Part shown: piece by piece, positions 4,226 through 64,000 of the stretch | How positions within the stretch are numbered: position 1 is the stretch's first letter | Layout: each line of letters opens with the position of its first letter | NCBI GenBank assembly: GCA_964016885.1 | Contig: OZ024740.1 | Span: forward strand, 181,536,001 to 181,600,000 | Direction of reading: 5' to 3' | Source: Eledone cirrhosa | Lineage: Eukaryota | DNA: 64,000 nucleotides | Translations under genes and position numbers: made by a program | Notes under the pieces: model-generated | Seen by the model: only the letters and a program-made list of their open reading frames with translations | The model's database searches: none | Told to the model about the DNA's origin: nothing

Positions 4226-4339
4226 AGGAACAAGTAAGACCCCGACGGCTGAGCTCAAGCCGTTTCGACGGCTAATTCTGGACTCAGAATTAGCCGTCGA
4301 AACGGCTTGAGCTCAGCCGTCGGGGTCTTACTTGTTCCT
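4226..4339. repeat. Perfect hairpin (55-bp arms, 4-nt loop) made from the 3' half of a PLE hammerhead
   Basis: aggaacaag...aattctg / gact / cagaatt...cttgttcct. Contains GAAA-cggc-ttgagctca-gccg-TC-gggg, matching 18030-18056. Confidence 0.9.
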
Positions 4340-8476: not shown

Positions 8477-8520
8477 AGCTAACAGAGCTCGGTTTCGTAC
8501 TGTTGGCACTTATCAAATCC
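8477..8520 (-). ncRNA. Type I hammerhead ribozyme, U3-A8 core variant (mirror copy)
   Basis: Minus strand: ggat-TTGATAA-gtgc caaca gtac-GAAA-ccgagctctg-TT-agct. Confidence 0.65.
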
Positions 8521-8621: not shown

Positions 8622-8665
8622 GGCTTTGATAAGTACCAACAGTATGAAACAGAGCTCTGTCAGTT
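8622..8665 (+). ncRNA. Type I hammerhead ribozyme, U3-A8 core variant
   Basis: ggct-TTGATAA-gtac caaca gtat-GAAA-cagagctctg-TC-agtt. Stems I and II present, stem III palindromic, GUC triplet. Confidence 0.75.
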
Positions 8666-23546: not shown

Positions 23547-23612
23547 TATTTCATTATATATATTTCAGGGATATCATATTAAAAATATGGTATGCCCTCT
23601 TCAGATAAAATA
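23547..23612 (-). ncRNA. Type I hammerhead ribozyme (mirror of 28186-28251)
   Basis: Reverse complement of the 28186 motif. Confidence 0.8.
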
Positions 23613-53539: not shown

Positions 53540-57180
<3,641 letters not shown>

Positions 57181-57276
57181 TTTTAATGAATATTTGCTCT
57201 AGGGTTCTTATATATTTGATATATATTTATCCTTATCGAGCCCTCTTTGGATTTTAGTCTTCAAATGTATTATTAT

Positions 57277-57340
<64 letters not shown>

Positions 57341-60347: not shown

Positions 60348-61860
60348 TTATACTTCTCTTAGGTCAGTGTTGTTTGTGTCGGTGTTGTTGTTATTCCATT
60401 CATTCTTTCTGTTTAGTCTTGGACTTCTAAGTTCTATTTCACTGGCCTCTCTAATTTGCCTATCTGCTGGGTCATTTCTATGTTTAGATATTATTCTAAT
60501 TTCTATGTTGTCTATGTTACCGTCGTGTTGTTGTCTGGCATGTTCGTATAGTACTGACCCGTTTTCTCGTCCTTTTAGTTCCCCCCAGTGTTGGTCTATC
60601 CTTTCACCTATGCTACGAGCTGTCTCGCCTATGTATGTTGTTGTCATGTTTCTGCAAGTACCCCCTGTACATCTTATGCTATAGACTACGTTTCTAGTTT
60701 TACAGTTTATCCTGGAGTTTACCTTACATATGATACATTTCCTATTAGTACAGTGGGTTTTCTTAAAAGGGTAGGTTTTGCTGATCAGGGATTTTATGGT
60801 GGTTCCTGGCTTTTCTACCACCTTAATCTTTAAGTGGGTCTTTCTCAGGGCCTTTCTACACTGGTTAGCTAATTTCCCACCAGGGGTAGCGTCCACAAAC
60901 ATGACACTCTTTTATCTCTGGTTGTTGTACCATGATGTGGCCTTCCCTATCTTATGTCTAGCCCTATCTAAGCTATTCCATGATTTGCTCCTGTATAATG
61001 GGCAAATTCCTTTCATGTCCAGTTCTATGAGGGTCGTATACTTCTCCATGGCTCCTTCGTATACTCTGACTCTGTCTCTTTGGTTGTAACCAGAGAACTG
61101 CATGCGGTTGATGAAGTGTTGGATGTGTCTTTCCATTTCTGTTGGGTCGCACATGCGGGACACATTCTTCATCACTCGTACCAAATTTGCGATCAGAATA
61201 TTAAACTTAGCACTACTGGACATTGCTGAGTTTTTGAGTATCAGGTATTTGTAGGCCATGGGTTTAGCATAGTGTGAGTGGAGAATTTGGGCTCTCTCAT
61301 CTATAGTTTTAATCCAGAGTTCCGTGTCTAATACAGGTAGTCTATTGTTAGGGTGTTTGGAAGGGAATTCGATAGTTACAGTTACACTCTGGTGTATGGA
61401 ATTAGCTATCTGCTGGATGCTTTCCATTGTGCTACGTTCTAAATCAAACTTGTTAGTGCTCTCTAGTGGGGATATTCTTATAACTATATTGACATCGTCT
61501 ACGTAACGAGAGTACATGATGAGGTCTTTGGAGCTCTCATTAAGGAGATCTTTAAGTCTCCTTTCCCACCATACCATGAAAAGGTTGGCAACATCACCAG
61601 CTATGCTGACGCCGATGGCTACTCGCTCAGTTTGGGTGTAGATCTTCTCGTTGAACTTGAATATGTGGCCCTTTAGGGTAGTTTTGATACTAGCCCCTAT
61701 TGCATGTGCGAACATTTTTCTTACCTGATCATTGTTTTGGGGGATCCGTATAGCTTTGGTCCACCCAATCCACCTTCCCGTGGGAGTCATTTTTGCCATT
61801 GAGGTTATGGTGGAGGGTCTACACTTATGGGTCTACTAGGGCAGAAACGTCTAAGGTCAT
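60348..61860 (-). pseudogene. PLE of a different clade (YVDD RT + Cys-rich GIY-YIG), 5'-truncated, with one in-frame TAA
   Basis: YSRYVDD, LPVLDTELW, FSGY; CIIC..NCKTRNVVYSIRC..C..YIGETARSIGERIDQH..P.LN. ORFs 60912-61799 and 60348-60902 share a frame. Confidence 0.92.
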
Positions 61861-61962
61861 GGCGTTGAAAACCACGAACTGGATTACAATAAGCAATTTC
61901 CTTCTTCCCTAACTATATATATATATATAACTATATATATATTTATTAAAATAACAGATTAA

Positions 61963-62013
61963 AGTTTAAGCAAAGAATCGCTGCTTTCACCCTTAACGGG
62001 ATCTTCTGAAACT
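61963..62013 (-). ncRNA. Hammerhead ribozyme, U4A core variant
   Basis: agttt-CAGAAGA-t ccc gttaa ggg t-GAAA-gca gcgattctt tgc-TT-aaact. Confidence 0.65.
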
Positions 62014-62941
62014 AACAAAGTCAATCTGTAAACGCAGAACTGGATATTTCAAAAAATGTTGCAACCGGAGGAAGACAGGAAGTCGATACTTTGGTTCGTG
62101 GTAACGTTCGCTGGCAAAGAACGGGAAAAAACGAATAATACGTCATTAATAGGAGCGGTGAAAAACAATTACGTGCAAAGACAGAACCACGTTTATGGTA
62201 TAAAAGAGGTCGTAGACTAATGTTCTCTTAGGTGGTGCATAGAGACGTTCTCTGGCAATGAACGAAAAAACGAAGATAATAAGTCATATGTGGAGCGTGG
62301 AGAACAATAGCACGCAAAGACAAAACCACGTAAATGGTATAGCAGAAGTTGTAGACTAAAATTCTAACTAGGAGACCAAATGAATCTCCGCTACAGAGTT
62401 AAGAACAAAGTAAATAAATACAATACAGAAGTAATAGAAACAAATAAATACATACACGCAAACAGATACGTACATACACAAGCATACGCAAAACCTTACC
62501 ATAGGTATACAAAACCACGCACATATAAATATGTGTGTCTGTGTATGCTTGTGTACAAATAAATAAATAATTATATAAACGTATATAAGTAAATAAATAC
62601 GTATATAACAAGCGCACACACATACCTACAAATAAATACACGAATGTTCGGAGACGTATGTCAACTAAAACAAGAAGTACACATATACACACACCCACCA
62701 TACGTACGAACCTGCATACTCACGCAGACGCAAAACGCCCGTATACACATAGCCAAACCCTAAATACCAGACTATGTAAAAATTATACGCCATAACAGTC
62801 AAATATACGTACTAGAAGGTATACATACCTTCACAAAACATACGGGTAATATATACTTACCTATGCAAATAAGTAAAGGAATAAACAAAACATATAATTA
62901 GCTCCCACATCAAGACGTAAAATATCCACGTATATATCGTG

Positions 62942-64000
62942 CTATCCGTTAGGGTATAACGTGGGGCTGTAATACAGGAAACTTTTGTGCAATTTATGTT
63001 TACAAGCCGAAATTGCCTCAGATTTTGTGTTTAAGATGTGGTCTGTGGCGTAGAGTATTTCCAGGGCCTCAGCGGCGCAGAGGTCACATGGGCTTTTATT
63101 TCCGTTATACGATCTAGCCCTAACTAGGATCTCCCAGTGTAACTTATATTGGGTGTGGTTGTCTTTTAGACTCCAGATATAAGCTGAAAGTGACGTCATA
63201 TTCCTTCTTAGAGGGTAACGAAAAGAATGGGTATGCATGTAAAGACGCTGCTTGAAACTATTGGCGGTTAACCCTATGTAGGCCCTACGGGACGTGGGTG
63301 TTACAACCTTACATTTGTAGACAATGTTACTAGAGAGGCATTTCCCGGATAGGGGACAATCAGCCCGATTCCTACAATTACAGTTAGTACTAACTACAGG
63401 GTTGCACGTGTTCCTACGGCTAGGTAGCTTAGCTAAATTTGAAGCTGTGATGTTATGTGCAAGGTTAGGAGTCGTAGAGTAAGAAATTTTAATAGTATTT
63501 CTATTAAAAATGTTACTATATTTATGTGTAGGGGGAAAATTCTTCGTAATAAGGGAAAGAAAGATCTTAGCTAATGGTGTGGCCTCCTCCATATTATATG
63601 GTGGGTTAAACCAACAAATGCAACGGGATCTATTTCTTCTAGGTCTATTTTCGTACTCTGTATATGCTACCTTATCGACAAATCCACTTCGAGCAAGAGC
63701 TTCATTGTAATAAGTGGAATGGTCGTTGAAAATGCGCTCGTTGGTGGAAAGACGGGAAAGCCTCAACGAAACGTTTTTTACCAGGTTCTTGATTACGCTG
63801 GCAGGATGGTTGGAATGCTTACTTATGTAATTAAGCGTGTCATTCGGCTTTCTATACGGGTAATACAACCCATTCAATAAATTGAGTGTAACGTCGAGGT
63901 AATTAACGACCGAGAGATTGGCCTCAACCTGTATAGAGAGGTTGATGCCTTTAAAGAAGGCTGTGAGTTCTTTTCTGAACCTGTCGCAAGCACGAGGTCC
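62942..64000 (-). CDS. PLE RT C-terminus + GIY-YIG endonuclease, uninterrupted up to the window edge
   Basis: The frame stays open upstream of the listed ORF (GPRACDRFRKEL...NYLDVTLNL). Motifs SNHP, WFNPPY, CNCRNRADCPLSGKCL, AYIGLT, CDLC, CKH. Confidence 0.88.
   Translation of the reverse strand, partial: GPRACDRFRKELTAFFKGINLSIQVEANLSVVNYLDVTLNLLNGLYYPYRKPNDTLNYISKHSNHPASVIKNLVKNVSLRLSRLSTNERIFNDHSTYYNEALARSGFVDKVAYTEYENRPRRNRSRCICWFNPPYNMEEATPLAKIFLSLITKNFPPTHKYSNIFNRNTIKISYSTTPNLAHNITASNLAKLPSRRNTCNPVVSTNCNCRNRADCPLSGKCLSSNIVYKCKVVTPTSRRAYIGLTANSFKQRLYMHTHSFRYPLRRNMTSLSAYIWSLKDNHTQYKLHWEILVRARSYNGNKSPCDLCAAEALEILYATDHILNTKSEAISACKHKLHKSFLYYSPTLYPNG

What the first reader, a model, noticed from the sequence alone, without database searches (positions are those of the whole stretch)
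61963..62013. Conserved U4A hammerhead core (CAGAAGA) in two diverged copies of one PLE family
Seen: the copies at 61963-62013 and 54764-54817 differ in flanks, loop III and triplet (CUU versus CUC), yet both have CAGAAGA. Stem I changes in a pairing-compatible way (agttt/aaact versus aattt/aaatt). Known: U4 is nearly invariant in hammerheads. Inference: a natural non-canonical core kept under selection, attached here to a PLE whose visible ORF is uninterrupted.
Basis: partly seen in the sequence, partly recalled or inferred. Interest (0 to 1): 0.72.

Follow-up and report, generated by a model that had tools for sequence, protein, structure and literature searches.

The report
Altered-core hammerhead in prolific retrotransposon
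About 29,000 copies of a jumping-gene family in this animal genome carry a hammerhead self-cutting RNA motif with one normally fixed core letter changed from U to A; it is likely a slowed cutter, so the family would be a natural test of whether such elements need to cut their own RNA.

Summary
The CAGAAGA core is real. It is the type I hammerhead (minus strand, A4 = 62007) of a Hydra-clade Penelope-like family (3,243-nt unit, 709-aa ORF). A4 is fixed: 19,541 exact matches against 203 non-A. It is derived: the sister family in this genome has U4, and 73 of 74 sense-strand hits beside related ORFs in metagenomes have U4, none A4. Between two subfamily consensuses the 51-nt junction shows 0 differences against 95 of 685 in the UTR.

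The window's ORF is 5'-truncated. Cleavage is untested. Published mutagenesis predicts a strong slowdown, and unconstrained loops are conserved too, so selection on catalysis is not shown. Copies read through the cut site, but so do those of the U4 sister family.

Best reading: a slowed ribozyme kept as part of the element's terminal cis-structure. My searches found no published natural U4A; one key paper was unreadable. The scan had no note on this sequence; other core variants were noted on other genomes.

The parts
61954..62029 (-). Full extended type I hammerhead, copy 1 (young subfamily)
62002..62008 (-). Core C3-A4-G5-A6-A7-G8-A9; A4 = 62007
62009..62013 (-). Stem Ia 5' arm; pairs with 61963-61967 (5 bp)
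61989..62001 (-). Stem II: U10.1-U11.1 mismatch, 3 C-G pairs, 5-nt loop
   Evidence: the same closing mismatch is common in Hydra-clade hammerheads
61968..61988 (-). G12-A13-A14-A15.1, stem III (4-5 bp) with loop, U16.1 (61969), U17 (61968); predicted cut between 61968 and 61967
   Evidence: cut site inferred from hammerhead numbering
62014..62021 (-). Internal loop of stem I; holds the only 2 subfamily differences of the 76-nt motif
62022..62029 (-). Distal stem Ib 5' arm; pairs with 61954-61961 (8 bp, predicted pair probabilities 0.72-1.0)
61939..61967 (-). 29-nt extension past the cut site; the commonest 3' end of genomic copies (the other is +117)
61914..61938 (.). TA-rich insertion target
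62030..62941 (-). 3' UTR / pseudo-LTR of the element
62942..64000 (-). 3' part of the RT-GIY-YIG ORF (352 aa visible); the copy ends 58 nt beyond the window, 5'-truncated
54764..54817 (-). Hammerhead copy 2 (old subfamily), decayed; core 54804-54810, A4 = 54809
54744..57282 (.). Old rearranged insertion of the same family: end and UTR (minus strand from 54744), broken ORF piece (plus, 55620-57170), 5' UTR piece (plus, 57166-57282)

Best explanation
This is the family's inherited hammerhead with a fixed U4-to-A change, which likely slows self-cutting at least tenfold; the fold is likely kept because these last ~90 bases also serve as the structure at which the element's protein would bind and start copying, so fast cutting would not be needed. 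Shown: position, fold, fixation, derived state, conservation of the terminal stretch, copies that run through the cut site. Inferred: the slowdown (from other hammerheads), the protein-binding role, and that cutting is not limiting.
For: Same place and layout as Hydra-clade hammerheads: 159 nt before the ATG and near the 3' end, U-U closing pair, monomeric stem III. A4 in 19,541 of 19,744 pattern matches and in 77 of 77 copies from loci chosen by ORF. Sister family U4 in all 63 distinct cores. Roberts 2023 (passages): all single and double mutants of the CUGA turn are low except the C3-G8 swap. Perreault 2011: natural U4C considerably lowers activity in vitro yet suffices in vivo. Frangieh 2024 (passages): a PLE hammerhead cuts only with the element's protein, cutting mutants insert normally in vitro, and RT starts inside the RNA at two sites. 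Here 3' ends fall at +29 (97) and +117 (77) of 301 ends. N7, loops II and III and the tail are as unchanged as the core, which catalysis alone does not explain. U4 revertants exist (41 of the first 100 non-A matches, hand count), yet none of the 77 ORF-chosen copies is one.
Against: No rate was measured, and the mutagenesis data come from other scaffolds. All other core bases, all three stems and the distal stem are intact, and the predicted folding penalty of the active form (4.1 kcal/mol) is smaller than the median of 53 U4 relatives (5.6), as expected of a working ribozyme. Read-through of the cut site is uninformative: the U4 sister family also shows 0 of 30 starts there. No self-propagating lineage with a broken core or stem was found. 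Protein binding to this stretch was not tested.
Confidence: 0.55

Rival explanations
1. A4 is tolerated in this scaffold. The distal stem I and loop II contact, or the element's protein, restores near-normal cutting, and catalysis is what selection keeps.
For: 0 of 51 junction positions differ between subfamily consensuses and the 2 differences lie in the unpaired internal loop. In contigs of the best-holding runs no variant of 1% or more is listed at core positions in X19 or X20, while stems and loops have some. Tertiary contacts are proposed to offset core variants (Perreault 2011).
Against: No second-site rescue of the CUGA turn in a complete double-mutant set (Roberts 2023). No covariation inside the family. 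A4 was not seen in any related family. Free positions are conserved too.
Confidence: 0.2
2. The ribozyme is dead and nothing selects on its fold. The terminal stretch looks conserved because subfamilies swap or share 3' ends, or because of an overlapping sequence signal.
For: The whole terminal stretch, loops included, is invariant. Naiads multiply without canonical hammerheads (Craig 2021). The old loci were picked by similarity over a stretch that includes the motif.
Against: Subfamily-specific letters lie directly beside the junction (62016, 62020, 62030), so a swap would need a narrow breakpoint. The sampled intermediate copies keep the same motif. The active fold is predicted as well formed as in relatives.
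Confidence: 0.15
3. A4 was favoured for a second function: it makes a CAG after a U-rich tract (possible 3' splice site) and adds a pair to a competing helix that locks the core.
For: The sequence shows CAG after a U-rich tract. A D. virilis PLE intron ends at hammerhead helix I (Cervera 2014). Predicted C3-G12 pairing is 0.32 with A4 and 0.01 with U4.
Against: 0 of 30 copies that begin after the CAG are joined to an upstream sense exon, although PLEs keep introns, so this is weak. The net predicted effect on the active fold is only 0.25 kcal/mol.
Confidence: 0.1

Closest known systems
Hammerheads of Hydra-clade Penelope-like elements (Craig et al. 2021, PMC8557442; section 11, passages and rows of File S2 seen)
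   Same: Type I, in the pseudo-LTR, short stem II often closed by U-U (13 of 19 rows seen), U at position 17 (9 of 19), (TA)n target, same protein motifs
   Different: All 19 rows seen have CUGA (found with a canonical descriptor, so this is partly circular); here CAGA, G15.2-C16.2 and a longer loop III
Natural hammerhead core variants (Perreault et al. 2011, PMC3088659; section 8 and passages seen): U4C viroid variant, U3-A8, A6C, U10.1-U11.1
   Same: A normally fixed core base is changed in nature; U-U closing pair
   Different: U4A is not named in the text or searchable supplements (figures not seen); here the change is a pyrimidine-to-purine swap fixed in about 29,000 copies
Minimal dimer-type hammerheads of metazoan PLEs (Cervera and de la Pena 2014, PMC4209133; parts 1-2 of 4 seen)
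   Same: Hammerhead in both pseudo-LTRs of a PLE; low activity expected
   Different: This motif has a 4-5 bp stem III and a non-palindromic loop, so it is predicted to act as a monomer
PAc Poseidon element hammerhead (Frangieh et al. 2024, PMC11167929; passages seen)
   Same: Two fixed 3' ends downstream of the hammerhead; copies made across the cut site
   Different: Canonical C3 and G8 tested there; different clade; tail here 88 nt against 30-40

Membership tests
Hammerhead ribozyme, type I | Three helices round a junction, ends in stem I | tested here: met
Hammerhead ribozyme, type I | C3, G5, A6, G8, A9, G12, A13, A14, A15.1-U16.1, H17 | tested here: met
Hammerhead ribozyme, type I | U4 | tested here: not met
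   A in 19,541 of 19,744 matches
Hammerhead ribozyme, type I | Covariation of stems within the family | tested here: inconclusive
   stems invariant between subfamilies, no compensatory change; copy-2 changes are decay
Hammerhead ribozyme, type I | Stem I - loop II tertiary contact | not testable with these tools
   an internal loop and distal stem exist; contact not shown
Hammerhead ribozyme, type I | Site-specific self-cleavage | not testable with these tools
   copy-end test uninformative by its control
Hydra clade of Penelope-like elements | Single ORF, RT followed by C-terminal GIY-YIG endonuclease | tested here: met
   709-aa ORF with YRDD and a C-terminal VYK...YIG, read by eye; Pfam gave no hit
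Hydra clade of Penelope-like elements | RWK motif, DKT, CxCx5C linker, CxxC and CxH near the C-terminus | tested here: met
   RWR, DKT (NKT in P0004), CNCRNRADC, CDLC, CKH against Craig section 11
Hydra clade of Penelope-like elements | (TA)n insertion, tandem and inverted pseudo-LTR arrangement | tested here: met
Hydra clade of Penelope-like elements | Phylogenetic placement with named Hydra families | not tested
   the tree holds only unnamed relatives
Hydra clade of Penelope-like elements | Canonical hammerhead core | tested here: not met
   A4

The most novel reading that the evidence does not exclude
A natural hammerhead that cuts at a useful rate with adenine at position 4, rescued by its distal stem or by the retrotransposon's own protein: a fixed purine in the uridine turn, which a complete double-mutant scan of another hammerhead could not rescue.
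Probability: 0.2. Interest if true: 0.75.

Novelty: new variant of a known kind. Interest (0 to 1): 0.5.

Why it matters
Craig 2021 states that hammerhead function in endonuclease-bearing PLEs is unclear and that the ribozymes may be passengers. Here a very successful family carries a core change predicted to cripple cutting, next to a young sister family with U4 in the same genome. One kinetic comparison splits the outcomes. If A4 cuts well, the U-turn rule has an exception and CUGA-based searches miss real ribozymes (Rfam listed neither copy). If it does not, a PLE multiplied to about 29,000 ends without fast self-cleavage.

Tried and rejected
Copy starts at the cut site as a trace of cleavage: no peak at +1 in family A (0 of 68 rows covering the ATG, some rows duplicates; the first attempt used a wrong ATG position and was redone). 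The U4 sister family also gives 0 of 30, so the test says nothing.

Lineages that tolerate a broken stem II: G11.3-to-A (741 matches) is scattered over subfamilies and is often absent from the partner segment of the same insertion, so it is decay. A 195-match clade with two stem II changes sits in a composite repeat with a shared foreign upstream part in 27 of 30 loci; its mode of copying is unknown and it was not used as evidence.

Spliced copies: none in 30. A closer outgroup: the 57%-identical protein P0005 has no DNA context or name, and searching the genome with it listed matches at 53-57% identity, several at places already known as family A.

RNA: no RNA holder listed. All laid runs are contigs; X1 laid 0 records; X23 and X24 laid one near-identical contig each and were not used. 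Core-to-loop III pairing: 4 possible pairs seen by eye, chance level, not pursued. Pfam gave no match for either full ORF. The careful tree did not finish; the quick tree is cited.

Rows dropped from the metagenome count: 5 minus-strand hits, one of them a low-scoring UA core; 19 of 76 loci had no hit (4 show a U4 core by eye, the rest are mostly cut short).

Full report
Observation. Both motifs lie on the minus strand and fit a type I hammerhead with core CAGAAGA. Copy 1 has stem Ia of 5 bp, stem II of 3 bp closed by U-U, stem III of 4-5 bp and triplet CUU. Stem I continues past an 8-nt internal loop into an 8-bp distal helix, so the motif spans 61954-62029. Copy 2 pairs only 3 bp of stem Ia before an A-A mismatch and has lost a stem II pair. 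Its 29 nearest loci mostly carry the copy-1 letters at those positions. The two-copy covariation argument therefore fails: these are changes after insertion.

The element. The window lies in a 3.0-Gb genome. Full-length copies have a 3,243-nt unit with one 709-aa ORF that starts 159 nt after the cut site of the upstream hammerhead. Motifs read by eye (RWR, DKT, CxCx5C, CxxC, CxH) and the (TA)n target match the Hydra clade as defined in Craig 2021, section 11. Pfam gave no hit, and no named Hydra protein was placed in my tree. Copy 1 is 5'-truncated at unit position 1172 and carries an inverted end piece, so it is not an autonomous copy.

A4 is fixed. An exact 30-mer with A4 matches 19,541 times and the same with C, G or T 203 times; the reversed controls give 0. 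With stem II left free there are 29,467 matches, and the 100 listed all belong to this family. These count element ends, not insertions. In loci chosen by ORF, 77 of 77 cores have A4. Of the first 100 non-A matches, 41 are T, 35 G and 24 C (hand count). Five of the six T loci fully visible begin at the 5' edge of stem I or at a fold-back junction.

A4 is derived. Of 76 metagenome loci that encode related ORFs, 57 gave a sense-strand hammerhead; of 74 such hits 73 have U4, one C4 and none A4, although position 4 was left free (hits are redundant, shuffled control 2 hits). A young sister family in this genome (about 54% amino-acid identity over the stretch compared) has a U3-A8 core with U4 in all 63 distinct cores, and N7 varies among them (40 G, 19 U, 4 C). 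In the quick tree family A, P0005 and the sister family form one clade (support 100), with A and P0005 together (92). The hammerhead of P0005 is unknown, so A4 arose after the split from the sister family, date unknown. The U-U closing pair and U17 are ordinary in this clade (13 and 9 of 19 rows seen in Craig's File S2).

Conservation. Majority sequences of a young and an old subfamily differ at 95 of 685 UTR positions, at 0 of 51 in the junction, at 0 of 13 in the tail and at 2 of 8 in the internal loop (Fisher p 0.0007, or 0.004 against the nearest UTR part). Contigs of the best-holding runs agree: variants of 5% or more inside the junction fall at or beside CpG sites, while upstream there are many frequent ones. 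Two cautions apply. The old loci were selected by similarity over a stretch that includes the motif. And N7, both loops and the tail are as constant as the core, unlike N7 in the sister family, so the constraint is wider than catalysis requires.

Activity. Nothing here measures it. Roberts 2023 (passages) found all single and double mutants of the CUGA turn low except the C3-G8 swap. Perreault 2011 lists natural variants including U4C, slow in vitro but sufficient for viroid infectivity. Frangieh 2024 (passages) found a PLE hammerhead that cuts only with the element's protein and is dispensable for insertion in vitro. In family A, 3' ends fall at +29 (97) and +117 (77) of 301 ends, and none of 68 ATG-covering rows starts at the cut site. 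The U4 sister family behaves alike (3' ends +20 and +103, 25 each of 82; 0 of 30 starts at the site), so read-through is general and cannot show that A4 is inactive. Folding predicts the active form no worse than in U4 relatives (4.1 against a median of 5.6 kcal/mol over 53), with a small A4-dependent competing helix.

Mechanism. I read the motif as a slowed ribozyme inside the terminal structure from which reverse transcription starts (0.55). Near-normal cutting by context or protein rescue (0.2), a dead relic (0.15) and selection for an overlapping splice or lock signal (0.1) remain open. Searches for lineages that spread with a broken stem gave nothing usable: one variant is scattered decay, another rides in a composite repeat.

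Novelty. 'Hammerhead' with 'U4A' gave 0 papers; CAGAUGA and CAGANGA occurred in none of the 15 papers listed; led to no report of it. Lunse 2017, Ambros and Flores 1998, Nelson and Uhlenbeck 2008, Tang and Breaker 1997 and Hammann 2012 were not held, and figures were not visible, so an earlier record is not excluded. Other papers opened (PMC6765202, PMC7151607, PMC3376415, PMC11014351, PMC6155905, PMC3907566, PMC2553840 and a 2026 preprint on retrozymes) were seen as term passages only and held nothing on U4A. The scan's notes had nothing for this sequence but describe other core variants in other genomes. Hammerhead numbering and the cut-site position rest on established convention. Verdict: real, a new variant of a known kind, activity untested, interest 0.5.

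Noticed in passing
window near 4298 (+), 18029 (+), 14294 (-), 4267 (-); loci L243-L322: Ends of a second young Hydra-type family whose hammerhead has a U3-A8 core, a long loop II (about 40 nt) and variable N7; it also forms tandem arrays of about 3.5-kb period. My first descriptor missed it.
   Followed up: partly
window 8626-8661 (+) and near 8516 (-); L079: Another U3-A8 hammerhead family (UUGAUAA) with stem changes between copies.
   Followed up: no
window 54330-54401 (+): Canonical CUGAUGA hammerhead with a short palindromic stem III; the only Rfam hammerhead hit listed (HH9 model, 38.6 bits, below the gathering score).
   Followed up: no
window 28194 (+), near 23604 (-), 40299 (+), 59591 (+), 18227 (-), 3675 (-): Further U4 hammerhead-like motifs of other repeat families; the genome holds many such families.
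   Followed up: partly
window 60912-61832 (-); L091 7459-9048 (-) and 3668-6416 (+): RT-endonuclease ORFs of a different Penelope-like clade beside the family A copy.
   Followed up: no
L353-L412: 5' truncations and fold-back junctions pile up at the 5' edge of stem Ia (13 of 77 segments at -44 to -52, none between -53 and -84), perhaps an RT pause or snap-back site.
   Followed up: partly
L093-L136, L213-L242: Near-full-length copies often begin at +95 to +134, close to the +117 end; this could mark a transcript start or one full turn of a circular template.
   Followed up: no
L455-L484: A composite repeat of at least 195 copies: a shared foreign upstream part joined to about 270 nt of the old family A end, with stem II broken.
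   Followed up: partly
L323, L329, L330, L341, L349: Short family A ends (about 96 nt upstream of the cut site), most with a shared downstream flank, probably carried inside another repeat.
   Followed up: no
run X22 laid on L127:1772-1900: This run (kind not on record) shows more sense-strand A-to-G differences, fewer CpG changes and depth centred on the hammerhead, unlike X19 and X20. Contigs only, so no claim on expression or editing.
   Followed up: no
L178 2167 (+): One C4 hammerhead-like hit 334 nt upstream of a related ORF in a metagenome contig, probably from another element.
   Followed up: no
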